Positions 15,686-30,099 are shown, counted from the first letter of the stretch. The stretch is 64,000 bases of DNA from Nitrospirota bacterium (GCA_963751455.1 CAVVUN010000015.1:1536001-1600000); one strand, 5' to 3'. A program made the numbers and translations. The notes: generated from the sequence alone by a model not told the origin.

Positions 15686-16042
15686 ATGATGAAACGGTCT
15701 AAATTGGTTTTTGCAGTATGTGTTGTGGTTTTAGTCAGCGCCAGTGGCTGTAAGAAAGAAGCCCCCGCACCTGCGTCTCAGGCACAGCCCGCAGCTGCAA
15801 ACATGGCAGCACAGCCTGGAATCGCTCTTTCCGGTAAAGTAGCGGAAACAATGAATGCCGGCGGCTATACCTATATTTCCCTTGAGTATAGCGGGAAGAA
15901 GACCTGGGTCGCCATACCCGCTACGAAGGTGAAGGTGGGACAGCAGGTGACCTGTCAGCCCGGCTCGGAGATGGTAAATTTCACAAGCAAGACTTTGAAT
16001 CGTACGTTCGAAAGCATCATCTTCTCCGCTGGTATCCGCTGA
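15686..16042 (+). CDS. Lipoprotein with OB-fold-like (NrfJ-related) domain
   Basis: Lipobox ASGC; GKVAETMNAGGYTY..KTWVA..F.SKTLNRTFESIIF motif. Confidence 0.75.
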   Translation: MMKRSKLVFAVCVVVLVSASGCKKEAPAPASQAQPAAANMAAQPGIALSGKVAETMNAGGYTYISLEYSGKKTWVAIPATKVKVGQQVTCQPGSEMVNFTSKTLNRTFESIIFSAGIR

Positions 16043-16069
16043 TACCGGGCACCCGGGACATTACAAGCC

Positions 16070-16103
16070 AAGGCCGCTGAGTTGATCAGCGGCCTTTTTA
16101 TTT
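16070..16103 (+). terminator. Intrinsic terminator
   Basis: AAGGCCGCTGA-GTTGA-TCAGCGGCCTT followed by a T-rich run. Confidence 0.85.
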
Positions 16104-16436
16104 AAAAACCTGACTTTTTTCTTTTCTATCCGATATTCTTACTGATGAAAAGAAAGTTGCGGCGGTTTTATTCACGAACGAACATCCTTTTCGGTAGCTT
16201 CAGCATGGTGGTGTGAGCGAACCCGTGCCTTGAACGTTATAAAGCACCCCGAATAGACAAATTGAGATTCATTAAACAAGCCAGCTTCAAAAGCCGCCAT
16301 TTTTTTCGGCTTTAAAAGCAAAGGTTCCTGCGTCCGGCAAGCCAGCGTTTTATCGCGATAAAATCCCTTGACAGGATTCCCGGAAAAAAGCAAAAATAGG
16401 CTAAGAGTATCGGCAATACCTTGCCTACAAGGGCGC

Positions 16437-17729
16437 ATGACGAACGGCAATCAATTACCGAAGAATACAATATCATCAGGTGTCGAAAGTCTGGACACCC
16501 TTATCGACGGTTTTTCCATTGGGGACAATGTAGTCTGGGAAGTCGAATCCGGAACCGCCTACAGCACGTTCACCAGGAACTTCATTTCCCGGTCTTTCCA
16601 GGACGATCAAAAGGTCATTTACGTGAGTTTCAACCGGTCGCCGCAGACCGTGTTGAACGATCTGAACGCGATCATATCCCCCGATCACTTCACGCTGATT
16701 GATTGTTTCACTTCCGGGAAGGGGAAAAACGACAACACCTTTCTGAAATTTTACGAAAAAGCGGACGCGGGCGTCGTCAGGATAGAGGCTCCGCGCGACA
16801 TAGAACGGTTTACCTCGACCTTGAACGCAATCGAGGACCGGCTGCCGCCGGGCGCGCGCTACGTGTTTGACAGCCTTACCGGTATGCAGGACCTCTGGGG
16901 CGACGAAAACGATACACACCGGTTCTTTACCTATATGTGCCCGCGTCTCTACGATCTCGGCACCGTGGCCTACTGGATCCTCGAGAAAGAGGCGCACAGT
17001 CCGCGGTTCAAGGCGAACCTGCGGCACATTACGCAGGTCGTGTTCGATCTCGCAAAGCGCAAGAACAGCCTGTTCCTGAAGGCCCTGAAGCTGGAAGGAA
17101 GACAGGACCGGGAACTGTTCAAACCGCATCAATTCCACATCCGCGGCGACACTGTGGCGATTACTTCGCTCAAGCGCGAGCCGGCAACGGACATCGGCGA
17201 AAAACTGCGGGAGGAGCGGATCAGGGTCGGCATGAGCCAGAAAGAGCTTGCGGATAAGGTAGGTTTGACCGCAAGCTTTCTGTCGCAACTCGAAAACAAC
17301 CAGGTCAGTCCTTCCCTGAATACGTATATGCAGCTCTGCAGGGCGCTTGGCATCAACCCCGGGCACTTTCTCGGACCGATTGAGAAAAAGAACGAAACCA
17401 CGTGGCTGGTGCGAAGGGATGCCATATTTTCGAGAGTTCCGATCAAGGAGGACTACGCAAGGGTCTATGAAGCCGCATCCGGCAGAAAACTTGCGGCAAG
17501 GCTCGTTGTTCTGCCCGTAGGCGCTGCCATGAACCGGCACTTTTTTTATCATAAGGACGAAGAGTTTGTTTGCGTGCTTAACGGCACAGTATCAGTCACG
17601 GTCGAGGGCAGGGAAGAGATGGTCAAGGCAGGAGACATGCTCCATTTGCGCGATTCTTTTCCATCGCATTGGAAGAATGAAGGAGATAGGGAGGCTGAAT
17701 TACTTGTGCTATGGTCTGAAACTCTCTAA
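16437..17729 (+). CDS. Transcriptional regulator: degenerate RAD55/KaiC-like domain + XRE HTH + cupin
   Basis: SSGVESLDTLIDG..VFDSL; MSQKELADKVGLTASFLSQLENNQVSPSL; HKDEEFVCVLNG cupin. Confidence 0.88.
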   Translation: MTNGNQLPKNTISSGVESLDTLIDGFSIGDNVVWEVESGTAYSTFTRNFISRSFQDDQKVIYVSFNRSPQTVLNDLNAIISPDHFTLIDCFTSGKGKNDNTFLKFYEKADAGVVRIEAPRDIERFTSTLNAIEDRLPPGARYVFDSLTGMQDLWGDENDTHRFFTYMCPRLYDLGTVAYWILEKEAHSPRFKANLRHITQVVFDLAKRKNSLFLKALKLEGRQDRELFKPHQFHIRGDTVAITSLKREPATDIGEKLREERIRVGMSQKELADKVGLTASFLSQLENNQVSPSLNTYMQLCRALGINPGHFLGPIEKKNETTWLVRRDAIFSRVPIKEDYARVYEAASGRKLAARLVVLPVGAAMNRHFFYHKDEEFVCVLNGTVSVTVEGREEMVKAGDMLHLRDSFPSHWKNEGDREAELLVLWSETL

Positions 17730-18076
17730 TTAGTAAATTTTACAGGCGAAAATTTTTTATGTTCTTTATCAAGTATTGCTTAATTTAATTATTAAAAATT
17801 AATAAATACTAAGTCTTTATTTGGATCGAAGGGAATGTGGGCCTTCATCATCAGGACGCAGTTTTTAGAATTCCTTTCTATGACAAGAAGAAGGAGGTGG
17901 TTAAAGCTAGCTGCTTGTTCACTGGAAGGTTTTATTAATGTGGATTGCCTGGCTTTTTTTTGCCTTCCCTGTCAAGTAACGCTTAATTTATCTCAAAAAA
18001 CTTAATAGTAGCTAATGTATTTTAGTAATGATATTGACCCATCGCCAGGCAAAAACTAATTTAAAAGGAGAGAACC

Positions 18077-19669
18077 ATGAATCTGTCACAACCAAATGCC
18101 AATGAAGCGACCAGAACAGTCAATCGATCCAGAAGTGTTTCGCCCATGAGCGGGCTATGCACCCGCTGCGTGGACGGATGCAAGGGCAGCTGCGAGGTTT
18201 TTAAAGCGACGTACCGGGGACGGGAGTTGCTTTATCCGGGGCCTTTCGGAAGCATCACTGCCGGCGGCGACAAGAACTACCCGGTCGATTATTCTCACCT
18301 CAACATTCACGGATACGCGCTCGGCGCAAAGGGACTTCCTTCCGGTCAGAAAGGGGACCCCGACACTGCCCGCTTCCCGAATGTCAACACCGAGACAAGC
18401 TACGGCTGGGATAAAAAAGTGAAGATGAGGGTTCCGATCTTCACCGGGGCGCTCGGATCCACGGAGATCGCCCGCAAGAACTGGGAACACTTTGCCGTGG
18501 GCGCGGCGATATCAGGCGTCACGATCGTATGCGGTGAAAACGTGTGCGGCATCGATCCGGGACTCGAATTGAACAGCAGCAAAAAAGTGAAGAAGTCGCC
18601 CGACATGGACCGCAGGATCGAGACCTATAAAAAGTACCATCAGGGTTTCGGCGAACTCCTGGTGCAGATGAATGTCGAGGACACCCGGCTGGGCGTCGCG
18701 GAATATATCATTGAAAAGCACAAGCTCGAAACCATAGAGCTGAAGTGGGGCCAGGGCGCCAAGTGCATCGGCGGAGAGATCAAGGTGGACAGTCTGGAGC
18801 GCGCTCTTGAACTGCAGAAACGGGGCTATATCGTTACGCCCGACCCCTCTGATCCCGTGGTGCAGGCTGCTTTTAAAGAGACGGCGATCAAGGAATTTGA
18901 ACGTCACAGCCGCCTCGGGTTCATCGGCGAGCAGGAGTTTTACGCCGAGGTTAACCGGCTGCGGGGCCTGGGCTTCAAGCGTGTCACGCTAAAAACCGGC
19001 GCATACGGCCTGCGCGAGCTCGCCATGGCTATCAAGTGGTGCTCGAAGGCCAAGATCGACCTGTTGACCATCGACGGCGCACCGGGAGGCACAGGCATGA
19101 GCCCCTGGCGCATGATGGAAGAATGGGGCATGCCCTCCCTGTATCTCCATGCCGCAGCGGCTGAGTTCGCAAAGAAGCTGACAGATAAGGGAGAACGTGT
19201 TCCGGACATCGCTTTTGCCGGCGGCTTCAGCAGCGAGGACGGCATATTCAAGGCCCTGTCGCTTGGAGCGCCGTTCGTGAAGGCCATTTGCATGGGCCGC
19301 GCACTGATGATCCCGGGCATGGTCGGCAAGAACATCGCCCAGTGGATAAAGGAGAAGGACATTCCGAAGTCGGTAAGCGAGTATGGTTCCACGGTGGAAG
19401 AGATATTCGTAAACTACGAGGACGTGAAAAAGCTGGTCGGGAGCAAGGAGATCGCCAACATTCCGCTCGGCGCAATCGGCATTTACAGCTACTCAAACAA
19501 GATCAAAGTGGGACTGCAGCAGTTCATGGCGGGCGCCCGTTGCTTCAATCTCGATTCTATTACGAGGAACGAGCTGATGTCCCTCACCGAGGAATGCGCG
19601 AAGGTCACCGGCATACCGTACATCATGAATTCCTATCGCGATGAGGCGATGAAGATAATAAATTCCTGA
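18077..19669 (+). CDS. FMN-binding glutamate synthase family protein (stand-alone)
   Basis: IELKWGQGAKCIGGE, DGAPGGTG, AGGF, MGRA; N-terminal CTRCVDGCKGSC; SD AAGGAG. Confidence 0.9.
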   Translation: MNLSQPNANEATRTVNRSRSVSPMSGLCTRCVDGCKGSCEVFKATYRGRELLYPGPFGSITAGGDKNYPVDYSHLNIHGYALGAKGLPSGQKGDPDTARFPNVNTETSYGWDKKVKMRVPIFTGALGSTEIARKNWEHFAVGAAISGVTIVCGENVCGIDPGLELNSSKKVKKSPDMDRRIETYKKYHQGFGELLVQMNVEDTRLGVAEYIIEKHKLETIELKWGQGAKCIGGEIKVDSLERALELQKRGYIVTPDPSDPVVQAAFKETAIKEFERHSRLGFIGEQEFYAEVNRLRGLGFKRVTLKTGAYGLRELAMAIKWCSKAKIDLLTIDGAPGGTGMSPWRMMEEWGMPSLYLHAAAAEFAKKLTDKGERVPDIAFAGGFSSEDGIFKALSLGAPFVKAICMGRALMIPGMVGKNIAQWIKEKDIPKSVSEYGSTVEEIFVNYEDVKKLVGSKEIANIPLGAIGIYSYSNKIKVGLQQFMAGARCFNLDSITRNELMSLTEECAKVTGIPYIMNSYRDEAMKIINS

Positions 19670-19824
19670 TCAGAGCGAAGCAATCTCGAAGTTCCAAACT
19701 TGCAGAAAAAGGGAATTGAGCTTCGCGCAATGATGGCAGCGGAGACTTTTGCGAGAACTTCAAAATTGGCATGCACCCGTTCCGTCGGTTCAGCGGCGGA
19801 ACGGGTCATTTCCCGGGAGAGAAA

Positions 19825-20823
19825 ATGATAAATAAAACCCTTCACTCGATTCTTTCCGTACTTGACAAATATCCGATCATTGTCGGATCTCGCGAACTCT
19901 CAAAACAGCTAAAGCAGCACGGCGTGGAGCTGACCGAACGAACCGTGCGGTACTATCTGAAGAGGCTCGATGCGCGGGGCTATACCGAGGTGTTCGGCAA
20001 GGAAGGCAGGAAGATAACTCCGAGAGGAAGAGAGGAACTGAGCAATTCACTCGTTTCGGATAAGGTGGGATTTGTTATCAGCCGGATAGAAACGCTCTCC
20101 TACCTGACTTCGCTTGATATGGCGACGATGGAAGGGGATATTATCCTGAATATATCGTATTTTCCCAAGAATAAATTTAGTAAGGCAATGGATCTGCTGA
20201 AACCTGTCTTTGCTTCTCCGTATGTAATGAGCGATCGTGTTATGGTGGCTTCCAACGGAGATACCATCAACGATATCCCGGTCCCGAGGGGGATGGCTGC
20301 GCTCGGCACTGTCTGCAGCGTCACGATCAACGGCATATTTCTCAAAGCAGGAATCCCGGTAACGTCCCGGTTCGGCGGAGTCGTTGAGACTGCTGATGGG
20401 GCGCCAAAGCGGTTCGTGTCCGTCATCAGTTACGATGGATCGTCGCTGGATCCGCTTGAAATGTTCATTAAGAGTAAAATGACAGCGGTATCAAAAGCGG
20501 TTAATGGACGGTCCGGAAGAATTCTGGCCAGTTTCAGAGAAATTCCGGTTGTCTGCCTGGAAAAGGCAAAAAAACTCGCGAAGAGTATGACGGAAAGGGG
20601 AATCCGGGGCATTCTGATGATCGGAAGTCCGAACAAGCCTCTGCTCGAGATTCCTGTAGGAATTGACAAAGTGGGGGTTGTGATCGTTGGCGGCCTTAAT
20701 CCAATTGCTGTTCTGGAGGAGAACGGTATTGTCACCGACAGTAAAGCCATGTCCACGCTCTACGATTATACACGGCTCGTCTCATTCAGAAATGTTGCCA
20801 GGAACGGCCTTTCCCCAGCTTAA
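19825..20823 (+). CDS. nrpR: NrpR-family (DUF128) nitrogen regulator, wHTH + NRD domain
   Basis: LTERTVRYYL, ITPRGREEL, TVCSVTINGIFLKAGIP, YDGSSLDP, GGLNPIA. Confidence 0.88.
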   Translation: MINKTLHSILSVLDKYPIIVGSRELSKQLKQHGVELTERTVRYYLKRLDARGYTEVFGKEGRKITPRGREELSNSLVSDKVGFVISRIETLSYLTSLDMATMEGDIILNISYFPKNKFSKAMDLLKPVFASPYVMSDRVMVASNGDTINDIPVPRGMAALGTVCSVTINGIFLKAGIPVTSRFGGVVETADGAPKRFVSVISYDGSSLDPLEMFIKSKMTAVSKAVNGRSGRILASFREIPVVCLEKAKKLAKSMTERGIRGILMIGSPNKPLLEIPVGIDKVGVVIVGGLNPIAVLEENGIVTDSKAMSTLYDYTRLVSFRNVARNGLSPA

Positions 20824-21022
20824 TATCCTGATCCCGACAACTATTTAGGCTGTGTGGATCTATTCCCTTTTTTGATGGCATTATATTGCCGTGCAAACAC
20901 CGTGGGAGTCAGTCCTGCTGTCCGAACGCCCGCTGCGTCGGGATGGGCTTTTCTGATGTCCCAATAGGTCGAAATTGCGCCCGCGCTAAAAATTTCTTCT
21001 TTCTTCTCCCTGTAATTTTTTC

Positions 21023-21052
21023 TTGACACTCGAGCAGAAACCGGTGTATTGT
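21023..21052 (+). promoter_or_regulatory. Sigma70 promoter of the mvhD-metVF operon
   Basis: TTGACA, 18 nt, TATTGT. Confidence 0.6.
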
Positions 21053-21080
21053 ACTTTTCGACGGCAACGTTTTGCCGACG

Positions 21081-21110
21081 AAAAAGCCCCTCAGGGAGGG
21101 GCTTTTTTTT
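21081..21110 (+). terminator. Terminator hairpin in the mvhD leader
   Basis: AAAAAGCCCCTC-AGG-GAGGGGCTTTTTTTT. Confidence 0.8.
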
Positions 21111-21150
21111 GCCGCATTTTTAGGCAATCGATAGCGAAGAAGAGGCGGGA

Positions 21151-21609
21151 ATGAAGAAAGCGAACGAGTCAGAATACGCGCCCCGAATCGTGGTGGCTTA
21201 TTGTCATAATACGGTATCGCCCACCGAGGAACTGCGTGAGGGACAATATTCGGGAAAAGGGTTCAGCGCTTTTTTTGCCGCGCTGCCCTGTTCGAGCAAA
21301 ATTGAACCCTCCTATCCGGTTAAAATTCTGGCCGACGGGGCGGACGGAGTGGTGATTGTGGCATGTCCGGAGAGCCGCTGCAGGTTTATGGTAGGCAGTG
21401 TTCGGGCAGAGAAAAGGGTCAACTATGTGCGGGCCCTTTTGGATCAAGCGAAAATCGGCGCCGAGCGCGTCACCTTGGAACGCGGTGAAAGCCTTTCGAC
21501 AAAAGATCTTCTGGAGATCGCGCAGCGTCGTGTAAAGCCGTTGAATTTATTGGGACCCAATCCCATGAAAACATCAAAAAGAACCACAGAGCCCATCGAG
21601 AAAAAATAA
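21151..21609 (+). CDS. mvhD: MvhD/FlpD-type [2Fe-2S] subunit
   Basis: AYC..LPCSSKI..GADGVVIVACPESRCRF..G..ERV. Confidence 0.85.
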   Translation: MKKANESEYAPRIVVAYCHNTVSPTEELREGQYSGKGFSAFFAALPCSSKIEPSYPVKILADGADGVVIVACPESRCRFMVGSVRAEKRVNYVRALLDQAKIGAERVTLERGESLSTKDLLEIAQRRVKPLNLLGPNPMKTSKRTTEPIEKK

Positions 21610-21661
21610 ATAATCAACATCTCTGTGTTATCGAGTAACATCCCATAAGGGGGAATGGAAA

Positions 21662-22333
21662 ATGATCATAGCTGAATGGAAACCCCTGTCCGAACTGGTG
21701 GAAAAGCTGAAGGGGCATTCCAAAGTTCTGGTTGCAGGCTGCGCGACCTGTGTCGCCGAATGCGCCGCCGGCGGTGAACGTGAAGTGGAGACCCTGGCGC
21801 CGCTGCTGCAGATGGCCCTGCAGAAAGAAGGCTGCACCGTTACTGTTCGTACCAAGACGTTGGAGCGTCAGTGCGAATGGGAATTTGTGGAACAACTGGC
21901 CGATGTGGTGCCCGAGGTTGACGCAATCGTGAGTCTTGCCTGCGGCATCGGTGTTCAAGCACTGGCCGAGCGGTTCCCTGATCTATCGGTTTATCCCGGA
22001 GTGAACACAACCTCTCTGGCAATCCGGCAAGAGCCCGGAATCTGGCTTGCACGGTGCGCCGCGTGCGGCGATTGCGTTCTGGGCGAGACCTTCGGCCTGT
22101 GTCCGATCGCCCGCTGCGCAAAAAGCCTGTCGAACGGGCCGTGCGGCGGAACGAGAAAAGACGGGAAGTGCGAAATTGACGAGAACATCGACTGCGTCTG
22201 GTACCAGATCTACCAACGGGCAAAATCCCGGGGCAAGGTAGAGCAGCTCATAAAAGTCCGGAAGCCCAAGAACTGGTCGAACTCAGGCCACGGGGGCCCC
22301 AAACGGATGGTACGGGAGGATTTGCGGTCATGA
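21662..22333 (+). CDS. metV: Methylenetetrahydrofolate reductase small Fe-S subunit (MTHFR_C)
   Basis: GCATCVAECAAGG, RQCE, ACGIGVQ, CAACGDC..CPIARCAKSLSNGPCGG. Confidence 0.9.
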   Translation: MIIAEWKPLSELVEKLKGHSKVLVAGCATCVAECAAGGEREVETLAPLLQMALQKEGCTVTVRTKTLERQCEWEFVEQLADVVPEVDAIVSLACGIGVQALAERFPDLSVYPGVNTTSLAIRQEPGIWLARCAACGDCVLGETFGLCPIARCAKSLSNGPCGGTRKDGKCEIDENIDCVWYQIYQRAKSRGKVEQLIKVRKPKNWSNSGHGGPKRMVREDLRS

Positions 22334-23268
22334 CAAAAGCGGGTACCAGACTGGAAAAAACACTGCGCGCCGGGCATTTTGCCGTGACGGTCGAAGTGGG
22401 GCCGCCGCGCGGCGCTAATCCTGAAGATGTCGTGCGCAAGGCACGGACGCTCAAAGGCATTGCCGACGGATACAACGTCACCGACAACCAGACCGCAGTG
22501 GTGCGCTTGTCGAGCATTGCCGGCGCCCGGCTTCTGCTGGATGCCGGATGCGAGCCCGTCATGCAGATGACCTGCCGCGACCGCAACCGTATTGCCCTGC
22601 AGTCGGACCTGCTGGGCGCCTGGGCATTGGGAATGCGTAACTGCCTCTGCATTTCAGGCGACCATCAGAAAGCGAGCGCATCCGGAAAACTGAAAGGTCA
22701 TCCCGGCGCCAAGAACGTGTTTGACGTTGATTCGATCCAGTTGATCTCAATCATGAAAGATATGCGCGATGCGGGCGTTCTGGAGAGCGGGGACCCTATC
22801 TCCAGCCCCACGCCGTTTTTTATCGGTGCTGCGTGGACGCCGCTTGCACCGCCCGAGGAGTTCCGCGTACTGCGGCTTCAAAAGAAGATCGAGGCAGGTG
22901 CGGATTTTATTCAGACGCAGGCCGTATTCGACATGAAGCGGTTTGCGGCTGCGGTTTCAGCGGCGCGGGAGAGGGGCCTCACTGATAAAGCCGCCATTCT
23001 TGCGGGCATCATCGTTCCGAAATCAGCAAAGATGCTCGAATACATGAACGCCAATGTGCCGGGCGTGGAGGTTCCGGAATCCCTGATCAAGCGAATGGCC
23101 GGGGCCGCGAACCAGCGTGAGGAAGGGTTCAAGATTACAGTTGAGTTGATCCAGGCTGCCCGGGAGATTCCCGGTGTGAAGGGCGTGCATCTGCAGGCCA
23201 TCGAATCCGAAGAGGTACTGCCGGAGATCCTCAAATCTGCCGGACTCCTGCCGCGACCGCAAGTGTAA
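22330..23268 (+). CDS. metF: Methylenetetrahydrofolate reductase
   Basis: EVGPPRG, NVTDNQTA, QMTCRDRNRIALQSDL, KKIEAGADFIQTQ; ATGA overlap with metV. Confidence 0.95.
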   Translation: MTKAGTRLEKTLRAGHFAVTVEVGPPRGANPEDVVRKARTLKGIADGYNVTDNQTAVVRLSSIAGARLLLDAGCEPVMQMTCRDRNRIALQSDLLGAWALGMRNCLCISGDHQKASASGKLKGHPGAKNVFDVDSIQLISIMKDMRDAGVLESGDPISSPTPFFIGAAWTPLAPPEEFRVLRLQKKIEAGADFIQTQAVFDMKRFAAAVSAARERGLTDKAAILAGIIVPKSAKMLEYMNANVPGVEVPESLIKRMAGAANQREEGFKITVELIQAAREIPGVKGVHLQAIESEEVLPEILKSAGLLPRPQV

Positions 23269-23429
23269 ACTGACTCGGCCAAGTTTGAGCCAAAAAAGTC
23301 ACGGTATCGGTTACAACGCCCGTTTCGGTGAGCGGTCTATTTTTGGGCCAAGGCAACCATGTGCCGTAAAACCCGATAGCAAGAATTTGATCCGTAGCTG
23401 ACTACGTTCCCGGATGGTAATAAAACGAT

Positions 23430-26396
23430 ATGTCGAAGAAATATCACATCAAAGTTGAAAATGCGCCGGCCCGCTTTCCGGCCGTGGCCCGGTATTCCCA
23501 GTTGGAAACCGAGGGGTGTCTGGGCTGCCTTAAGTGCGTAAAACGTACCTCGTGCGTTTACTCCGTTCACGAAAAGCGCTCGTTCGATCCGGCCCAGATC
23601 GTGGATAAGGCCGATGCCGCGTGCGTGGGCTGCATGCAATGCGTCCAGGAATGCAAGAAGAACATTCTCAGCCGCGCAAAAAATCCCCGGTACGAAAAAA
23701 TGGGGAATGAGTACTGGACGCCGGCGCTCATTGCCGGCATCTGGAAGCAGGCAGAAACCGGCAAGATACCCGTATCCGGCGCCGGGTACCGCGGCCCGTT
23801 CAGCGGCCCGGGGTTCGATCGGATGTGGACCGACATGTCGGAAATCGTCAGGCCTACCCGCGATGGAATTCACGGCCGCGAATATATCAGTACGGTCATT
23901 GAACTCGGCCGAAAGCCCTCCAAGCTTGTTTTCGATGCTCAGGGCGGCATGGTGACCGAGCCTCCGCTGTTCATCGAACTGCCTCTTCCGATTGTAGTGG
24001 AAGCTCCGCGGTTCCCGCATGTATCGTCCCAAACAATCGAAGCCCTTGCCCAAGCAACGCATCGGAGCGGGACATTGATGCTTGTCGATGTGAAAGCCGC
24101 GCAGAATATTTCGCCCCGCCTGAGAAGCCGTGTGATGGTTATATTTAATCCGGAGAGGGATGATCCGGCCATTCTTAAAGACGTTCCAGCGGCCCAGATT
24201 GCCTATTCGGCAACCGTGCTGAAAGATATACAGAAACTAAAAAATGCAAAGCCTGATCTTGTTGTTTCCGTGCGCGTTCCCCTTGATGAAAATGCGGTAA
24301 AGCTTGCCAGCAAGCTTGCTCTTGCCGGGGTTGAGATTATCCATCTGTATGCGGATGCAAACGGCAGGGGAGTAAAAAACCGAAAAGCCGATTTTGTGAC
24401 CACGCTGCTGAAGGAAGTGCATTTCAAACTGGTCGATGAAGGCGTGCGCCAACAAGTGACAGTCCTGGTTTCCGGCGGCATTGCCATGGCCGAACATGTT
24501 GCCAAGGCGATACTCTGCGGGGCTGACGGCGTGGGCGCGGACATTGCGGTTTTGATCGCGATGGAATGCCGTTTATGCAAGGAATGCAATTCTGCCATTG
24601 CCTGCCCGGTAGACCTGGGCACGGTCCCGGTGGAATGGGCCGAGAAGCGGATCGTGAACCTGCTCGGTTCGTGGCACTCCCAACTGATCGAACTGATGGG
24701 CGCCATGGGTATCCGCGAGGTACGCCGTTTGCGGGGAGAACTGGGCAGGGCAATGTTTTTTGAAGACCTGGAGCGGGAGAATTTCGGCCCGCTGTTCGGA
24801 GAACGGGTGACGGGAAACCATGCAAAACCGCTGGTACTTCGTGACACCCCGCCGCCGGTTCACGGCAACGGACACGTGGAAACGCCGGGCGGTATTCATC
24901 TGGAAGTCAAAACCACTCCTTCCCGCTATCGCAACAAGTTCGGCAAGTTTAAAGTTGTGCGGACTTCCGCCTGCATTGCATGCGGTAAGTGCGCCGAGGT
25001 GTGCGCTTACGGCGTTCTGGTCAAGGCCGGCAGCCGCATGCTTGCCCCCAAATCTCATTTGTGTGTGGGCCGGGAACATTGCCGAAGCAAAAAACGGTTC
25101 TGCGCCGACAATTGCCCGAAAACTGCCCTGCGTGTAGGCAGAGATCCGGTTTTCGAAACGCTCGGAGATTCGCGGTGGACCCCGGATCTTCTGCTGGCGA
25201 CCTGGCATCAGGCCGAGACCGGCCGTCCGCCGAAAGGCGGACTGGAGTACCGGGTGGGAAATTCGGGCGGCGGGTTCGATTGCATGGACTTCAATTTCCC
25301 CGAGCAGCATCCGGATCCTTCTCTGAAGCCGCAGGACATAGACTTGTCCATTCCGCTTAATCGCAGGAAGGACGGCCGGCCCGAGGTGAAGATCGGGTTC
25401 CCGGTCTACGGCGGCGGAATGAGTTTCGGGTCCGTGAGCCTCACCACTATCGTTTCACGAGCGCGTGCGTACACAGCGATGAATTCATTCACCTGCACCG
25501 GTGAAGGCGGTTATCCGGAGGAGCTCAAACCGTACGATGATCATGTTATTACTCAGGTGGCGACCGGGCTGTTCGGAGTCCGCGAGGAAACCATTCAGCG
25601 GGTGCGCATCGTCGAATTCAAATATGCGCAGGGCGCGAAGCCGGGTCTCGGCGGTCACCTGCTCGGCGACAAGGTAACGCCTTCAGTGGCGAAAATGCGG
25701 GAAGCCGTGGTCGGTTCGGCCCTCTTTTCTCCGTTCCCGTTTCACTCGGTCTATTCGGTGGAGGACCACAAAAAGCATGTCGATTGGATGAAGGTGATCA
25801 ATCCCCGCGCCCTGGTTTCGGTCAAGGTTTCCACGCCTTCGGACGTGGACATGGTGGCCGTCGGTAGTTTTTACGCAGGCGCAAACATCATCCATCTTGA
25901 CGGAAGCTATGGAGGCACCGGCGCCGCACCGGACATCGCTAAAAAGAATATCGCGATGCCGATAGAATACGCCATACCCAAAGTGCACCGTTTTCTGATG
26001 AACGAGGGGATCCGCGACGAGATGACGCTGATCGTCTCGGGCGGCTTGCGTACTGCCTGGGATGTTGCCAAGGCGATTGCGCTTGGCGCCGACGGCGTCG
26101 TGATCGGCACGGCAGACATGGTGGCGCTCGAATGCATCCGGTGCGCAAATTGCGAGAGCGGACGGGGGTGTCCGCGCGGCATAGCCACAACCGATCCTGT
26201 ACTGACCAAGATGTATGACGAGGCGTGGGGCTCGCAGAGGCTCATAAATCTTTACCATTCCTGGATGCTGCAGCTCCAGGACATTCTCTGGCGTTTCGGC
26301 ATGAAGAGCGTGCGGGAACTGGTGGGTCGTTCGGACCTGTTAACGCACCGCGACTACGAGAAACGCACGGAATACCGGCGGGCGGAGTCAGGGTAA
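23430..26396 (+). CDS. Glutamate synthase-related protein with two tandem ferredoxin + FMN-binding modules
   Basis: CVGCMQCVQEC and CIACGKCAEVC ferredoxin motifs; second barrel has GMSFGS, TGEGG, EFKYAQGAKPGLGGHL, GGTGAA, CIRCANCESGRGCPRGIAT. Confidence 0.88.
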   Translation: MSKKYHIKVENAPARFPAVARYSQLETEGCLGCLKCVKRTSCVYSVHEKRSFDPAQIVDKADAACVGCMQCVQECKKNILSRAKNPRYEKMGNEYWTPALIAGIWKQAETGKIPVSGAGYRGPFSGPGFDRMWTDMSEIVRPTRDGIHGREYISTVIELGRKPSKLVFDAQGGMVTEPPLFIELPLPIVVEAPRFPHVSSQTIEALAQATHRSGTLMLVDVKAAQNISPRLRSRVMVIFNPERDDPAILKDVPAAQIAYSATVLKDIQKLKNAKPDLVVSVRVPLDENAVKLASKLALAGVEIIHLYADANGRGVKNRKADFVTTLLKEVHFKLVDEGVRQQVTVLVSGGIAMAEHVAKAILCGADGVGADIAVLIAMECRLCKECNSAIACPVDLGTVPVEWAEKRIVNLLGSWHSQLIELMGAMGIREVRRLRGELGRAMFFEDLERENFGPLFGERVTGNHAKPLVLRDTPPPVHGNGHVETPGGIHLEVKTTPSRYRNKFGKFKVVRTSACIACGKCAEVCAYGVLVKAGSRMLAPKSHLCVGREHCRSKKRFCADNCPKTALRVGRDPVFETLGDSRWTPDLLLATWHQAETGRPPKGGLEYRVGNSGGGFDCMDFNFPEQHPDPSLKPQDIDLSIPLNRRKDGRPEVKIGFPVYGGGMSFGSVSLTTIVSRARAYTAMNSFTCTGEGGYPEELKPYDDHVITQVATGLFGVREETIQRVRIVEFKYAQGAKPGLGGHLLGDKVTPSVAKMREAVVGSALFSPFPFHSVYSVEDHKKHVDWMKVINPRALVSVKVSTPSDVDMVAVGSFYAGANIIHLDGSYGGTGAAPDIAKKNIAMPIEYAIPKVHRFLMNEGIRDEMTLIVSGGLRTAWDVAKAIALGADGVVIGTADMVALECIRCANCESGRGCPRGIATTDPVLTKMYDEAWGSQRLINLYHSWMLQLQDILWRFGMKSVRELVGRSDLLTHRDYEKRTEYRRAESG

Positions 26397-29047
26397 TGAA
26401 AACTAAGATGAACACTATTTACAATTCGTGGCGCGGTACGGGCCGAGATCCGCGCTTCCCGGAAATTATTGCCGCATCGCGGGCCGGCCTTTTGACCGGC
26501 GCAGAACATGTACGGGAAAAAGACGCTGAGGAAGGCGGCTGCGGCGTGGTCGGGTTTGCAGCCACTGTGCCGGTGCGCGGGCGCCATATTTTCGAGCCGT
26601 CCATCCAGATGCACAACCGGGGTAACGGCAAAGGCGGCGGGATTGCTGCCGCTTCTCTTGAACCCGGGTACCTGGGAGTGGATGACGCGACCCTGCAAAA
26701 CGATTATATCCTCCAGATTGCGCTGATCGATCCGACCGCCGAGAAAGAGGTGGAGAAGTTCGGCATTGCCCCGTGGCTCCAGGTGGACCACAAAACCCGC
26801 ATACAACCCGTTGCGGACCACCGGGATGTCGGCCTGGATGTAAAGCCGCCGGATATCGTGAGATACTTTGTGCGCGTCAAGGACAAGGTGCTCAGCAAAT
26901 TTGCCAAGGAGCACGGATTGGAAAAATCCGACAGACGCCTGGTGGAGGATGAATTCATTTTTCGCAACAGTATTCAGATCAACCGCCGTTTTTACGCCTC
27001 CTTGGGCAACAAACGCGCCTTTGTAATGTCCCATGCGCGTAATCTCGTGATTTTCAAGATCGTGGGGTATGCTGAGCAGGTGGTGCAGTATTATCAGCTC
27101 TCCGATATGCGGGCCAGAATCTGGATCGCGCATCAGCGCTATCCCACCAAAGGCCGGGTATGGCATCCTGCGGGCGCACATCCGTTCATCGGGATGAATG
27201 AAGCGCTCGTCCATAACGGTGACTTTGCCAACTATTTCGGAGTGACCGAATACCTGCGGCAGCATAACCTCGTTCCCAATTTTTTGACCGATACGGAAGT
27301 CTCAGTTCTTCTTTTCGATCTGCTGACCCGCGTATACAATTATCCGCTTGAGTATGTGATCGAGGCAATGGCGCCTACGACAGAGAATGATTTCGATGCA
27401 TTGCCCGAACCGAAGAAGAAGATATACCGGGCCATTCAGGCGCAGCACATGCACGGATCGCCCGACGGCCCGTGGTTCTTCATCATCGCTCGGAGCAACC
27501 CGGACCAGCTTCAGTACCAGCTTCTGGGTATCACCGACACCTCAATGCTCAGACCGCAGGTGTTCGCGATCCAGGAGGGAGACGTATCCATCGGCCTGGT
27601 CGGTTCTGAAAAACAGGCCATCGATGCCACATTGAAATCCCTGGCCGAGGAGGACCCGCGCTTCCGTCATGTTGCCGACCGGTACTGGAATGCGCGCGGC
27701 GGCAGCCACACCGATGGCGGCGCGTTCGGTTTTACGGTAAAGACGGTCAACGGTAATACGATGCTTTCCTGTGCCGACAAATTCGGTAACCCCATCACTG
27801 CGCCGGCCGGTCAGTGGAGAATCGACGAGAAGGGGAGCATTACCATAGCTGAACAATGGCGCACCCGGATCGCAAACGGCCTTTCAAGCGGCAGCGCTGC
27901 CGAATTATTCAAGGATCTGACTACTGAGTTTCGCTCCTGGGGTCTTGACCAGGTTCGCGAAGCAATTGACGAGATTTGCACGGCTGCCGGCGGCGGTGAT
28001 CGGAATTTAGAGGCGGCTCTGGAGGTGCTCTCGCTCCTGCAGGACCGCCGATACGATTGCGGCCCCAATAAAAGAAGCGCGATTCTCCACCTTATTCAGG
28101 GAGGGATTGACCGGCTTCTTGACTCGGTGCCGGCAATAACAAGCAACGGCTCCGGCCGATATCGCCGGGTGGATTTCTCCACACGCAATCAGCTTGCTGC
28201 GCCGCGGAGAGAAGACGCTATTCTGGTGGTCTTCAGCCGGGATTTCCAGCCTGAGGGGGACGATTGCGATGCCTTGCTGATGGTCCAGGCATACCGGCAG
28301 GGCTGGAAGCGGTTCATCGTGTACGGGCTGAAGGGTCAGCGGTTCACCGGATGCAGCTTCGGACCTGCATCCGATGGGGTCCGCATCGACGTATACGGCA
28401 GTTCAGGCGACTATATAGCATCCGGCATCGACGGAATGGAACTCCATATTCACGGCAACGGCCAGGACCAACTCGGTCAGATACTCAAACGCGGTACGCT
28501 CGTGGTTCACGGCGATGTGGGCCAGGCGTTCATGTATGGTGCAAAAGGCGGCGAGATATTCATCATGGGCAATGCAGCCGGCCGTCCGCTGATCAATGCA
28601 GCGGGCCGTCCGCGCGTCATCATCAACGGAACCTGCCTCGATTTTCTCGCGGAGTCTTTTATGGCCGGCGATCCCTTCAACGGCGGCGGGTTCGTTGTGC
28701 TGAACGGAATAGAATTCGACGACCGTGGCACGGTCCGCGACCAGCATTCGCCGTACCCTGGAGCAAACCTTTTTTCGCTTGCCTCGGGCGGGGCAATTTA
28801 CGTACGGGACCCTCATTCCACAATCGGCAAAGATAAGCTGAACGGCGCCGAGTTCGCCGAAATGACCAATGAGGATTGGAACCTGATTGAGCCATATCTT
28901 CGTAAAAACGAGCTGCATTTCGGTATTTCCATCGAACGAGATCTGCTCGTTATTGACGGCAAACCCAGTTCGCCGCTGTCGGTCTACCGGAAAGTGCGTC
29001 CGGTGAAAGTGGCGGCCCTTGCGAAGCAAACTGTTCCTGCTGATTAA
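26396..29047 (+). CDS. Glutamate synthase-type Ntn amidotransferase + GXGXG domain protein
   Basis: EEGGCGVVG (Ntn Cys after a propeptide), AHQRYPT, VHNGDFAN, C-terminal GXGXG repeats; TAATG overlap with the upstream gene. Confidence 0.88.
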   Translation: MKTKMNTIYNSWRGTGRDPRFPEIIAASRAGLLTGAEHVREKDAEEGGCGVVGFAATVPVRGRHIFEPSIQMHNRGNGKGGGIAAASLEPGYLGVDDATLQNDYILQIALIDPTAEKEVEKFGIAPWLQVDHKTRIQPVADHRDVGLDVKPPDIVRYFVRVKDKVLSKFAKEHGLEKSDRRLVEDEFIFRNSIQINRRFYASLGNKRAFVMSHARNLVIFKIVGYAEQVVQYYQLSDMRARIWIAHQRYPTKGRVWHPAGAHPFIGMNEALVHNGDFANYFGVTEYLRQHNLVPNFLTDTEVSVLLFDLLTRVYNYPLEYVIEAMAPTTENDFDALPEPKKKIYRAIQAQHMHGSPDGPWFFIIARSNPDQLQYQLLGITDTSMLRPQVFAIQEGDVSIGLVGSEKQAIDATLKSLAEEDPRFRHVADRYWNARGGSHTDGGAFGFTVKTVNGNTMLSCADKFGNPITAPAGQWRIDEKGSITIAEQWRTRIANGLSSGSAAELFKDLTTEFRSWGLDQVREAIDEICTAAGGGDRNLEAALEVLSLLQDRRYDCGPNKRSAILHLIQGGIDRLLDSVPAITSNGSGRYRRVDFSTRNQLAAPRREDAILVVFSRDFQPEGDDCDALLMVQAYRQGWKRFIVYGLKGQRFTGCSFGPASDGVRIDVYGSSGDYIASGIDGMELHIHGNGQDQLGQILKRGTLVVHGDVGQAFMYGAKGGEIFIMGNAAGRPLINAAGRPRVIINGTCLDFLAESFMAGDPFNGGGFVVLNGIEFDDRGTVRDQHSPYPGANLFSLASGGAIYVRDPHSTIGKDKLNGAEFAEMTNEDWNLIEPYLRKNELHFGISIERDLLVIDGKPSSPLSVYRKVRPVKVAALAKQTVPAD

Positions 29048-29097
29048 AACCCTACCCTAACGTGGGCACTCAGGCCCCGAAAAGCCAAACACGAATT

Positions 29098-29134
29098 AAA
29101 GCCTGTCAGACTAGGTTATCTGACAGGTTTTTTT
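29098..29134 (+). terminator. Intrinsic terminator
   Basis: CCTGTCAGA-CTAGGTTA-TCTGACAGG followed by a T run. Confidence 0.85.
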
Positions 29135-29354
29135 ATTTGATGACGAGTCCAAATGCATTGGTTGCGGCTTTGTGCCGGTGTCAGCCCATGCGCGCGTGGG
29201 AGAAATAGCCCTTTGCCCGGACATGGTGAAGGGCTTTTTATTATTTGAAATTCATATTGATGCAATGGAAAAAATATTATATGCTATATGCGGATGATTC
29301 TGATTGGCAGAACCGTCTTATTATCATTCGGGAAATCGGTATAAGGAGCAAACC

Positions 29355-30099
29355 ATGCCGGAACAGTTCAAGATCACCTATCAATTCAGATTGAGCAGCG
29401 GAATCGAAAAGAAATTTACTCTCGTGCTTGACGGCAAGACGCTCTCTTTGATACAGGAACAGAAAAATGACCGTCCGGAATGGGCCCGCCTGGAGTTTCA
29501 TCAGTGCGCGAACTGTCCGCTTAATACTACCCTTACACCCTATTGTCCGATTGCAGTCAATCTTTCCGGTGTTGCCTGGGAATTCGGGGAAATTACCTCT
29601 GAAGAAAAGGCAGCCATTACCGTCGTTGTAAAAGAACGTGCCTATTTCAAGGCGGCGATCAATACAGGAGGGGCTGAGCCCTCTGCTCGGCATCATCATG
29701 GCATGCAGCGGATGTCCGGTCATGGAACCGCTCAAGCCGATGGTCCGCTACCACCTCCCATTCGCAAGCCTGGATGAGACAGTCTTCAGGATGACTTCAA
29801 TGTTCCTGATGGCGCAATTCTTACGCAGCCAGTCAGGCAAAAAACCTGAATGGAAACTGGATGGTTTGGCAAAAATATATGCAGAGGTCAAAAAATTGAA
29901 CAAGGACTTCGGGAAAAGAATGATAACGGCGGCACGAAATGATGCAAACGTTCATGCACTTGTAAATTTGAACGTTTTCGCGGTCATGGTGCCGATGAAG
30001 GCTGAAAACATGATGAAGGAGATCGCGCCTTACTTCTCAGTCTTACCTGAGGTAGTCGGGTTTATTTGTCAAAGCCCCGGGAGCAAAGGTACTAATTAA
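29355..30099 (+). CDS. Cys-containing hypothetical protein (DUF6901-like), frameshifted near 29650
   Basis: WARLEFHQCANCPL..CPIA (ORF 29304) continues as QEGLSPLLGIIMACSGCP..KPMVRYHLPFA (ORF 29638); SD AAGGAG. Confidence 0.7.

What the first reader, a model, noticed from the sequence alone, without database searches (positions are those of the whole stretch)
18077..29047. MvhD-MetVF clustered with three glutamate-synthase FMN barrels and no GltD: possible coupled C1/nitrogen redox system
Seen: mvhD-metV-metF lies directly upstream of a double ferredoxin-FMN protein and an Ntn-GATase/GXGXG protein. A third stand-alone FMN barrel and two regulators are nearby, and there is no GltD or HdrA in the window. 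Known: MetVF associates with MvhD/Hdr in some acetogens (e.g. Moorella), and split GltB-like subunits form both archaeal-type GOGAT and N-methylglutamate synthase (MgsABC). Inference: electrons or C1 units may pass between methylene/methyl-THF and a GOGAT/Mgs-like enzyme, for example for anaerobic methylamine-nitrogen use or methyl-THF-linked glutamate synthesis.
Basis: partly seen in the sequence, partly recalled or inferred. Interest (0 to 1): 0.72.

Follow-up and report, generated by a model that had tools for sequence, protein, structure and literature searches.

The report
Rebuilt glutamate synthase with methyl-folate partner
Five genes that stay together in anaerobic bacteria of at least eight phyla encode a predicted two-chain glutamate synthase (the main nitrogen-assimilating enzyme) with no gene for the usual NADPH subunit beside it, which likely draws its electrons from a methyl-folate enzyme through a small iron-sulfur adaptor, a link between carbon and nitrogen metabolism that would be new.

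Summary
The genes are real. The conserved unit is five genes: mvhD-metV-metF-(double ferredoxin-barrel)-(glutaminase/beta-helix). All three electron-input genes precede the barrel gene in 38 of 48 informative loci, and mvhD does in 48 of 48. No Hdr gene occurs in 80 loci, against 34 of 40 other metF loci from the same genomes.

The two large proteins keep the glutamate synthase (GOGAT) catalytic motifs, and their models cover 629 + 583 residues of GltB. Only one barrel looks catalytic. The other has lost the FMN/2-oxoglutarate site and takes the place of GltB's central domain. The third barrel is a separate, rarely linked enzyme.

The module's MvhD and MetF form their own clades. Its promoter is shared with an ordinary GOGAT operon in relatives. 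The methylamine (Mgs) idea is unsupported.

Best reading: a glutamine-dependent GOGAT (about 0.9), likely reduced by methyl-THF oxidation through MetVF-MvhD (about 0.45). Binding and direction of electron flow are untested, and known GOGAT cofactors lie uphill of methyl-THF.

I found no paper on it in ten searches of an open-access library. This scan noted the same module in at least eight other genomes.

The parts
21023..21052 (+). sigma-70-type promoter of the mvhD operon (-35 at 21023, -10 ending 21052)
   Evidence: One of the two best of 15 consensus matches in 16000-30000. Both boxes are invariant in 8 of 8 aligned leaders: 5 mvhD leaders and 3 leaders of a standard split-GOGAT operon in relatives.
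21063..21076 (.). palindrome GGCA-N6-TGCC just downstream of the promoter; likely operator of the NrpR-family regulator (an RNA hairpin role is not excluded)
   Evidence: Four exact copies in 16300-23430 (16412, 20877, 21063, 23352) against 0.19 expected from the genome-wide rate, a post hoc test. Upstream of mvhD in 4 of 10 loci with nrpR in the locus (4 of 4 where nrpR is directly upstream) against 3 of 40 without.
21081..21111 (+). terminator-like hairpin in the mvhD leader; function unexplained (possible attenuator)
   Evidence: Leader folds with z = -4.6. The hairpin is recognisable in the 8 aligned leaders, degenerate in one. The terminator scan did not list it.
21151..21609 (+). MvhD-like [2Fe-2S] protein, predicted adaptor
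   Evidence: PF02662; PDB MvhD chains at E 6.5e-12. Four Cys kept in 52-53 of 53 homologues. 50 of 54 module copies form one clade that lacks the motif after the first Cys seen in Hdr-linked MvhD.
21662..22333 (+). MetV, Fe-S subunit of methylene-THF reductase
   Evidence: PF12225; 13 of 14 Cys invariant in 40 of 40 homologues.
22330..23268 (+). MetF, flavin subunit of methylene-THF reductase
   Evidence: PF02219. E22, D111, Q197 and H287 invariant in 40 of 40 (their catalytic roles are recalled from E. coli MetF). 39 of 41 module copies form one clade apart from 45 other copies.
23430..24809 (+). N half of the double-barrel protein: 2[4Fe-4S] ferredoxin plus a catalytically dead barrel that stands in for the GltB central domain
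   Evidence: Synthase residues lost, 12 cluster Cys kept in 56-61 of 61. Invariant block at residues 133-153 is homologous, through single-barrel GltB2, to the central-domain loop of GltB. The model superposes on 1EA0 448-1184.
24897..26396 (+). C half of the double-barrel protein: 2[4Fe-4S] ferredoxin plus the predicted catalytic FMN/2-oxoglutarate barrel with a four-Cys cluster motif
   Evidence: 1EA0 match at E 3e-52. K731, K737, R757, E778, K799, T830, R874 and four cluster Cys invariant in 67 of 67.
26396..29047 (+). Ntn glutaminase (propeptide, catalytic Cys at codon 26540) + helical linker + GXGXG beta-helix
   Evidence: PF01493 and GlmS/PurF-type hits. Cys49 in 74 of 77 (3 gaps); H246, R248, N274, G275 and D299 in 77 of 77. 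The model aligns 583 residues to 1EA0 1-1465 at 4.0 A.
19825..20823 (+). NrpR-family transcription regulator, likely local nitrogen-responsive repressor; accessory
   Evidence: PF01995 E 5e-84 + PF08461. In 10 of the 50 loci tabulated. Divergent from mvhD in G357.
18077..19669 (+). stand-alone GOGAT-like barrel protein of a separate family; not part of the conserved unit
   Evidence: Weak PF01645 match; only 82 columns align to the catalytic barrel profile. Linked in 3 of 80 loci; about 1.7 Mb away in G357.
16440..17729 (+). KaiC-like + XRE + cupin regulator; lineage-specific neighbour
   Evidence: A full-length orthologue sits at the same place in G009; other loci give only 23-27% hits to its N-terminal domain.

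Best explanation
The five genes from mvhD to the glutaminase gene likely encode one nitrogen-regulated, glutamine-dependent glutamate synthase complex that has no NADPH subunit gene beside it and is likely reduced by oxidation of methyl-THF at MetVF, with electrons predicted to pass through MvhD and the ferredoxin domains to the single catalytic FMN barrel.

Steps. (1) Shown by sequence, and by predicted structure: the two large chains rebuild a whole GltB alpha subunit in a new order, glutaminase + beta-helix on one chain and dead barrel + live barrel on the other. (2) Inferred: the dead barrel does the job of the GltB central domain, lining the ammonia tunnel and carrying extra Fe-S clusters. 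(3) Shown: MvhD and MetVF are dedicated paralogues inherited with these chains. (4) Inferred, untested: they bind the barrel chain. (5) Inferred, untested: net reaction methyl-THF + glutamine + 2-oxoglutarate -> methylene-THF + 2 glutamate.

Why it would pay: a Wood-Ljungdahl organism would fund nitrogen assimilation with its weakest reductant (-200 mV) and spare NADPH and ferredoxin. Confidence that the enzyme is a GOGAT is about 0.9; the figure given is for the whole mechanism.
For: Synteny in the best 80 of 207 GTDB relatives: catalytic barrel gene beside the glutaminase gene in 72 of 73; mvhD or metF upstream in 54 of 54; mvhD-metV-metF in 38, mvhD alone in 9 and mvhD-metV in 1 of 48.

No HdrA/B/C hit in any of the 80 loci, against 34 of 40 other metF loci from the same genomes.

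Catalytic motifs invariant. Models align 629 residues (3.5 A) to GltB central + synthase domains and 583 residues (4.0 A) to glutaminase + beta-helix.

39 of 41 module MetF and 50 of 54 module MvhD form their own clades. Pairwise identities of MetF, MetV and MvhD track those of the glutaminase chain (rho 0.71-0.82). 34 of 37 genomes with a module metF hold a further MetF-like match.

The same promoter-palindrome-hairpin leader precedes an ordinary GOGAT operon in three relatives. Recurrent neighbours are NrpR, Amt, glutamine synthetase and GDH. In the single-contig genome G357 this is the only full synthase barrel.

Overall energetics are favourable, -26 to -28 kJ/mol (-200 mV from PMC8760232, other inputs recalled). 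MvhD pulls down MetF in Sporomusa (PMC9430772).
Against: No activity, binding or expression data.

In A. brasilense GltS the FMN is at -240 mV (-270 with 2-oxoglutarate) and the [4Fe-4S] clusters are estimated at or below -360 mV (PMC8097209), so steps inside the wire would be uphill from methyl-THF.

10 of 48 loci lack metF, so the enzyme can exist without a co-encoded MetVF; 12 of 13 such genomes have metV elsewhere. In the MvhD-MetVF systems I read about, the partner is proposed to be the donor and MetVF the sink.

The ferredoxin domains alone could take electrons from soluble ferredoxin. The own genome and 13 of 50 carriers also have a canonical GltB. Acetyl-CoA synthase is in 38 of 50 carriers but also in 19 of 21 members of the own family, most of which lack the module.

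The MetF tree is a quick tree without bootstrap and needs two origins. AlphaFold may reproduce the GltB arrangement from memory. Kin are not independent in any of the counts.
Confidence: 0.45

Rival explanations
1. Same complex, other donor. A low-potential donor (soluble ferredoxin, or an HdrA or other flavoprotein encoded elsewhere that docks on MvhD) feeds the wire. Electrons then go both to the GOGAT FMN and, through MvhD, to MetVF, which reduces methylene-THF.
For: All steps run downhill given the GltS potentials. MetVF alone uses reduced ferredoxin in vitro (PMC8760232, PMC9430772). MvhD stays when metVF is lost from the locus (9 of 48). A sister MetF sits behind a GltD-like-ferredoxin-MvhD fusion (L162). 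An earlier scan note mentions a similar enzyme in an operon with HdrA (e1-9813340; not checked).
Against: No donor gene in any of 80 loci. Module MvhD has lost the motif kept by Hdr-linked MvhD. Carriers mostly have another MetF already. Nitrogen-type control fits a reductant supply for GOGAT better than an extra methyl-THF supply.
Confidence: 0.3
2. Co-regulated but separate enzymes: an ordinary ferredoxin-dependent split GOGAT and a MetVF(-MvhD) reductase share an operon without exchanging electrons.
For: The barrel chain carries its own ferredoxin domains. metVF is dispensable at the locus. The window has a 161-bp gap with another palindrome copy between metF and the barrel gene. [quoted passage not shown]
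Against: mvhD precedes the barrel gene in 48 of 48 informative loci, even without metVF. Dedicated clades. A second MetF lineage was recruited to the same position (L101, L102). The metF-barrel gap is 100 bp or less in 37 of 44 other loci.
Confidence: 0.17
3. An anaerobic N-methylglutamate-synthase-like (Mgs) system that brings methylamine nitrogen and carbon into glutamate and the folate pool.
For: MgsABC is built from the same three domain types and resembles GOGAT. In M. extorquens GmaS is not needed for methylamine as a nitrogen source (PMC6237917).
Against: No type III GS (GmaS family, TIGR03105) over cut-off in 51 genomes, with the control over cut-off in 1 of 14. The own genome has one GS gene and no MttB. 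No mgd-like family among recurrent neighbours. The neighbours and leader are those of ammonium assimilation. It is the only full synthase barrel in G357.
Confidence: 0.04
4. A three-barrel system in which the stand-alone protein at 18077-19669 is a subunit of the complex.
For: It is adjacent here and in 3 of 80 loci. G357 also encodes one elsewhere.
Against: Missing from 33 of 36 loci with a full 10 kb upstream. It is separated from mvhD by nrpR and a distinct promoter, and it is very divergent from the catalytic barrel.
Confidence: 0.04

Closest known systems
Glutamate synthase alpha subunit GltB (A. brasilense 1EA0/2VDC/6S6S; Synechocystis Fd-GltS 1OFD; B. subtilis 7MFM)
   Same: All four structural parts are present and are predicted to sit in the same arrangement; glutaminase and synthase motifs are invariant; propeptide before the catalytic Cys.
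   Different: Two chains in a different domain order. The central domain is replaced by a full-length dead barrel with its own ferredoxin and cluster motif. Four-Cys cluster motif instead of three. About 200 extra helical residues between glutaminase and beta-helix. No gltD at the locus.
Archaeal-type split GOGAT (separate glutaminase, ferredoxin-barrel GltB2, GXGXG), e.g. L187, L188, L190; four-subunit form noted in Ca. Nitrosocosmicus arcticus (PMC6657660, passages)
   Same: Ferredoxin-fused barrel subunits, 34-35% identical to the live barrel and 23-27% to the dead one over the whole length.
   Different: GltB2 carries both the central-domain loop and the active site on one barrel. Here these are divided between two copies, the glutaminase is fused to the beta-helix, and mvhD-metVF sit in front.
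Type IV (Hdr-type) methylene-THF reductase HdrCBA-MvhD-MetVF of Moorella thermoacetica and Sporomusa ovata (PMC8760232, PMC9430772; passages)
   Same: Gene order mvhD-metV-metF; MvhD Cys set; intact MetVF. The own assembly has such a cluster at C3:7791-14802.
   Different: No hdr gene in 80 module loci. The partner is a nitrogen-assimilating electron sink. MvhD and MetF belong to separate clades (window MvhD is 21% identical to the Hdr-linked copy).
N-methylglutamate synthase MgsABC of Methylobacterium extorquens DM4 (PMC6237917, passages)
   Same: Same three domain types, encoded in pieces.
   Different: No gmaS/mgd context, different fusion pattern, ammonium-assimilation neighbours; strict anaerobes.
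NrpR of methanogens (operator GGAA-N6-TTCC, recalled)
   Same: Winged helix + NRD domains; palindrome just downstream of the promoter.
   Different: Palindrome is GGCA-N6-TGCC, and the spacer is shorter in G357. The pattern was not listed in front of glnA, amt or gltB in the own genome, so control looks local.

Membership tests
Glutamate synthase (GOGAT) | Ntn glutaminase with N-terminal Cys nucleophile and glutamine-binding motifs | tested here: met
   Cys49 74 of 77 (3 gaps), R75 76 of 77, H246/R248/N274/G275/D299 77 of 77; fold matches GltB. Residue roles recalled.
Glutamate synthase (GOGAT) | FMN/2-oxoglutarate barrel with catalytic Lys/Arg/Glu/Thr and an Fe-S motif | tested here: met
   C barrel: positions matching 1EA0 K931, K937, R957, E978, K999, T1030 invariant in 67 of 67.
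Glutamate synthase (GOGAT) | Central domain lining the ammonia tunnel | tested here: met
   Filled by the dead N barrel in a predicted model: 629 residues aligned to 1EA0 448-1184 at 3.5 A, Z 31.3; loop homology through GltB2. PF04898 itself does not match the N barrel.
Glutamate synthase (GOGAT) | C-terminal GXGXG beta-helix | tested here: met
   PF01493; model.
Glutamate synthase (GOGAT) | Glutamine + 2-oxoglutarate -> 2 glutamate activity | not testable with these tools
   Needs an assay.
NADPH-GOGAT (GltBD) | gltD beta subunit with the alpha subunit gene | tested here: not met
   No GltD-like hit in the window; the only one in the assembly follows an NfnA-like gene at C15:584-587 kb. GltD-like genes occur in 6 of 80 loci, where they belong to a neighbouring second GOGAT.
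Archaeal-type split GOGAT | Ferredoxin-fused FMN barrel on its own gene | tested here: met
   separate genes for the two barrels occur in several loci.
Archaeal-type split GOGAT | Single barrel type; glutaminase and GXGXG on separate genes | tested here: not met
   Two specialised barrels, and glutaminase fused to GXGXG in 76 of 80 loci read at 80% length or more without a stop.
Type IV MTHFR (HdrCBA-MvhD-MetVF) | mvhD-metV-metF with intact cofactor ligands | tested here: met
Type IV MTHFR (HdrCBA-MvhD-MetVF) | hdrABC in the same cluster | tested here: not met
   0 of 80 module loci against 34 of 40 other metF loci.
Type IV MTHFR (HdrCBA-MvhD-MetVF) | NADH oxidation at HdrA coupled to methylene-THF reduction | not testable with these tools
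   Needs an assay; an HdrA encoded elsewhere cannot be excluded.
N-methylglutamate synthase (MgsABC) | Linked gmaS (type III GS family) | tested here: not met
   TIGR03105 over cut-off in 0 of 51 genomes, control 1 of 14; family assignment from PMC6237917.
N-methylglutamate synthase (MgsABC) | Linked mgdABCD (N-methylglutamate dehydrogenase) | tested here: inconclusive
   SoxD family not found in the own genome, but no control genome rang; none among recurrent neighbours.
N-methylglutamate synthase (MgsABC) | Barrel groups with MgsC in a tree | not tested
   No MgsC sequence was obtained from a tool.
NrpR regulon | NrpR domain architecture | tested here: met
   PF01995 + PF08461.
NrpR regulon | Archaeal operator GGAA-N6-TTCC upstream of targets | tested here: not met
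   0 of 50 mvhD leaders; a GGCA-N6-TGCC variant in 7 of 50. Archaeal operator recalled.
NrpR regulon | 2-oxoglutarate-sensitive DNA binding | not testable with these tools
   Needs a binding assay.

The most novel reading that the evidence does not exclude
This is a methyl-tetrahydrofolate-dependent glutamate synthase: a five-subunit complex in which MetVF runs backwards and wires the Wood-Ljungdahl methyl branch directly into nitrogen assimilation, a new reductant class for GOGAT beside NAD(P)H, ferredoxin and the proposed F420. Its dead second barrel is a living intermediate that shows how the GltB central domain arose by duplication of the FMN barrel.
Probability: 0.42. Interest if true: 0.88.

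Novelty: new variant of a known kind. Interest (0 to 1): 0.72.

Why it matters
Bioenergetics. Methyl-THF (-200 mV) is the awkward reductant of Wood-Ljungdahl metabolism: oxidising it with NAD+ is uphill. A GOGAT that accepts these electrons would let energy-limited anaerobes assimilate nitrogen without spending NADPH or ferredoxin, and would give MvhD-MetVF a partner class unlike Hdr or RnfC2.

Enzyme evolution. A 2021 review leaves open whether the GltB central domain came from duplication of the FMN barrel or arose independently (PMC8097209, section 10). The series seen here speaks directly to that question: single-barrel GltB2 with both motif sets, then a dead + live pair, then GltB. It does not show that GltB descends from this particular pair.

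Annotation and testability. Databases label the barrel chain 'glutamate synthase-related' or even 'alpha-hydroxy-acid oxidizing protein'. Both large subunits are listed for a cultured sulfate reducer, Desulfoferula mesophila, so the idea can be tested.

Tried and rejected
Complex prediction: barrel chain residues 1-620 as partner, with MvhD and MetV. The tool's verdict was 'no answer'. Median score 0.71; the two partner-replaced controls scored 0.00; the control with MetV replaced scored 0.75.

RNA runs: none was listed; no evidence on expression. Rfam: no match in the window at gathering thresholds.

Direct profile comparison of the N barrel with the GltB central domain was not significant (hhalign probability under 1%; block HMM E 0.52). 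The link appears only through GltB2 and through the model.

Acetyl-CoA synthase co-occurrence does not discriminate within the own family. The SoxD search was uninformative because no control rang. The careful MetF tree did not finish and the quick tree is reported. The MvhD tree is FastTree with long branches.

A genome-wide NrpR regulon was considered and not found: the palindrome pattern was not listed before glnA, amt or gltB. An ANTAR-type RNA motif was considered for the palindrome and dropped, because the loop letters are not conserved (ANTAR consensus recalled).

Literature: ten searches. No listed title or abstract opening describes this module. I read passages of three papers that hold 'glutamate synthase', MetV and MvhD together, and they mention the terms in unrelated places. 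The library lacks most subscription journals and I read no supplements, so a description in a genome table or a closed paper is not excluded.

Full report
1. Observation. ORF calling and family scans confirm every gene named, all on the + strand: a stand-alone PF01645 protein (18077-19669), an NrpR-family regulator (19825-20823), MvhD (21151-21609), MetV (21662-22333), MetF (22330-23268), a 988-aa protein of two ferredoxin + barrel repeats (23430-26396) and an 883-aa Ntn-glutaminase/GXGXG protein, best started at ATG 26396. No GltD-like or Hdr hit lies in the window.

The host assembly G000 carries sulfate-reduction genes (read from translations), acetyl-CoA synthase, an HdrCBA-MvhD-MetVF cluster on C3, a canonical 1440-aa GltB and one glutamine synthetase. 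Its nearest relatives are labelled Nitrospirota. The C3 cluster partly duplicates the start of C15 at 84% identity and the assembly is 5.4% contaminated, so C3 may come from a second organism.

2. What is conserved. The glutaminase chain found 207 relatives among GTDB species; I examined the best 80. Their record titles name Nitrospirota, Desulfobacterota, Planctomycetota, Chloroflexota, Verrucomicrobiota/Lentisphaerota, Fibrobacterota, Myxococcota and Poribacteria. The catalytic-barrel gene is present in 72 of 73 loci with enough upstream DNA. mvhD or metF lies upstream of the barrel gene in 54 of 54. Of 48 loci with 2.4 kb or more upstream, 38 have mvhD-metV-metF, 9 mvhD alone and 1 mvhD-metV.

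No HdrA/B/C hit occurs in any of the 80 loci. As a control, 34 of 40 other metF loci from the same genomes have one (these 40 are the more similar of 79 non-module matches, with 5-kb flanks). The stand-alone barrel is linked in only 3 of 80 loci. Recurrent neighbours are NrpR (10 loci), Amt, glutamine synthetase and GDH (6 each), PurF and NadE (5 each) (labels read from the translations). The module is patchy: 3 of 31 close relatives and 7 of 301 phylum members. Kin are not independent and most genomes are incomplete MAGs.

3. The two large chains rebuild GltB. The C barrel matches 1EA0 at E 3e-52. The positions of K931, K937, R957, E978, K999 and T1030 (counted from the alignment; roles recalled) and four cluster Cys are invariant in 67 of 67 homologues. 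The glutaminase keeps its Cys nucleophile (74 of 77, 3 gaps) and its glutamine-site motifs (76-77 of 77).

The N barrel has lost the synthase residues. The K999 position is Arg in 53 of 61, the E978 and T1030 positions vary, and a Gly of the predicted phosphate site is Asp in 53 of 61, so it likely binds no FMN. It keeps 12 cluster Cys (56-61 of 61) and an invariant block at residues 133-153.

Single-barrel GltB2 proteins from other Nitrospirota (L187, L188, L190) carry both the active-site motifs and a block nearly identical to the GltB central-domain loop. A profile of that block (3 sequences) hits the central domain of 5 of 6 GltB at E 5e-6 or better (the sixth at 0.019) and the N barrel at 3.7e-8, but not the C barrel (0.096).

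The AlphaFold model of the 988-aa chain (pLDDT 85) aligns 629 residues at 3.5 A to 1EA0 448-1184, that is the central (423-780) plus synthase (781-1202) domains as defined in PMC8097209. The model of the mature second chain (pLDDT 81) aligns 583 residues at 4.0 A across 1EA0 1-1465. So there is one catalytic barrel, one central-domain stand-in, and an unrelated third protein. These are predictions and may lean on known GltB structures.

4. MvhD-MetVF are dedicated. MvhD keeps four Cys (52-53 of 53), MetV 13 Cys and MetF its recalled catalytic residues (40 of 40). In an 86-row quick tree, 39 of 41 module MetF form one clade (SH-aLRT 95) and two sit elsewhere, which points to at least two recruitments. 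50 of 54 module MvhD form one clade (FastTree 98) apart from 25 other copies, and lack the motif that follows the first Cys in Hdr-linked MvhD. Loci without metVF nest inside that clade, consistent with later loss; 12 of 13 such genomes have metV elsewhere. Pairwise identities of MetF, MetV and MvhD correlate with those of the glutaminase chain (rho 0.82, 0.79, 0.71), which shows joint inheritance, not function. 34 of 37 carriers of a module metF have a further MetF-like match, some of them distant.

5. Regulation. A near-consensus promoter (21023-21052) is followed by a GGCA-N6-TGCC palindrome (21063) and a terminator-like hairpin (21081-21111). The same leader stands before mvhD in four relatives and before an ordinary split-GOGAT operon in three of them; the exact palindrome is in 5 of the 8 leaders. 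It lies upstream of mvhD in 4 of 10 loci with nrpR in the locus (4 of 4 where nrpR is directly upstream, a subgroup chosen after looking) and in 3 of 40 without. That it is the NrpR operator is an inference; shorter spacers in G357 leave an RNA role open.

6. Methylamine. GmaS belongs to the type III GS family and mgsABC-gmaS lies beside mgdABCD in M. extorquens (PMC6237917, passages). TIGR03105 is over cut-off in 0 of 51 genomes. The own genome has no MttB; the SoxD test was uninformative. Mgs is unlikely, though that paper notes GmaS is dispensable for methylamine as a nitrogen source.

7. Mechanism. With methylene/methyl-THF at -200 mV (PMC8760232, passages) and recalled values for 2-oxoglutarate/glutamate and glutamine hydrolysis, methyl-THF-driven glutamate synthesis gives -26 to -28 kJ/mol. 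The locus offers no other donor, MvhD is a known MetF partner (PMC9430772, passages), and it never leaves the barrel gene in the informative loci. I therefore favour MetF -> MetV -> MvhD -> ferredoxin clusters -> FMN.

Against this: known GltS cofactors are more negative (FMN -240 to -270 mV, [4Fe-4S] estimated at or below -360 mV), 10 of 48 loci lack metF, a canonical GltB coexists in 13 of 50 carriers, and ferredoxin could feed the same wire. Acetyl-CoA synthase is in 38 of 50 carriers but is equally common in the own family without the module (19 of 21). Binding and direction of flow are untested.

8. A way to test it. Both large subunits are listed for the cultured Desulfoferula mesophila (WP_338606509, WP_338606510). 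Genome G357, a single contig encoding a protein identical to P0323, has nrpR divergent from mvhD-metV-metF and both large genes. There the module holds the only full synthase barrel, and its metV is one of four.

9. Prior knowledge. Papers seen: PMC5736913, PMC7325909, bioRxiv 2021.09.25.461819, PMC8760232, PMC9430772, PMC6657660 and PMC6237917 as passages; PMC8097209 as passages plus all of section 10; no supplements. Ten searches listed no description of this module in a library that lacks most subscription journals. Eight earlier notes of this scan describe the same module in other genomes, and three describe dead barrels as central-domain stand-ins (seen after my own). These notes are leads, not independent support.

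Verdict: a real, widespread and apparently undescribed variant of glutamate synthase. The enzyme identity is well supported, the electron donor is not shown. Interest 0.72.

Noticed in passing
window 21081-21111; L031-L034 leaders: A terminator-like hairpin sits about 25 nt after the predicted transcription start, both before mvhD and before an ordinary GOGAT operon in relatives. In the window only about 40 nt separate it from the start codon, so it must be read through; no Rfam match.
   Followed up: partly
L162 6148-8247 (-): A GltD-like flavoprotein + ferredoxin + MvhD fusion directly before metV-metF, whose MetF lies close to the module clade: a possible NAD(P)H-fed MTHFR without Hdr.
   Followed up: no
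L187 4376-5698, L190 2758-4074: A 438-440-aa protein, HdrB-like by eye (not scanned), lies next to a single-barrel split GOGAT in other Nitrospirota.
   Followed up: no
L026 6842-10164; L031; L032: Two tandem paralogues (56% identical to the window protein for the second) of the stand-alone barrel, and two nrpR paralogues, one before the module and one before a standard split GOGAT.
   Followed up: partly
window 16440-17729; cluster 6 (e.g. L100 2216-4819): The KaiC-like N-terminal domain of the XRE-cupin regulator also begins an ~870-aa protein found in 12 of 80 module loci, often near GDH or a NifA-like gene: a possible nitrogen-linked sensory domain.
   Followed up: no
window 29304-30099: Two overlapping ORFs match consecutive parts of DUF6901 (profile 1-95 and 92-221): apparently one frameshifted gene or an assembly error.
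   Followed up: no
G000 C3:1-8326 and C15:1-8345: Two copies of the metF-to-acsB region at 84% nucleotide identity. The C3 MetF is 99% identical to that of a relative, so contamination or duplication is possible.
   Followed up: partly
G000 C15:1329131-1333453 (-): Canonical GltB without an adjacent gltD; the only GltD-like gene found is part of an nfnAB-like pair at C15:584-587 kb.
   Followed up: partly
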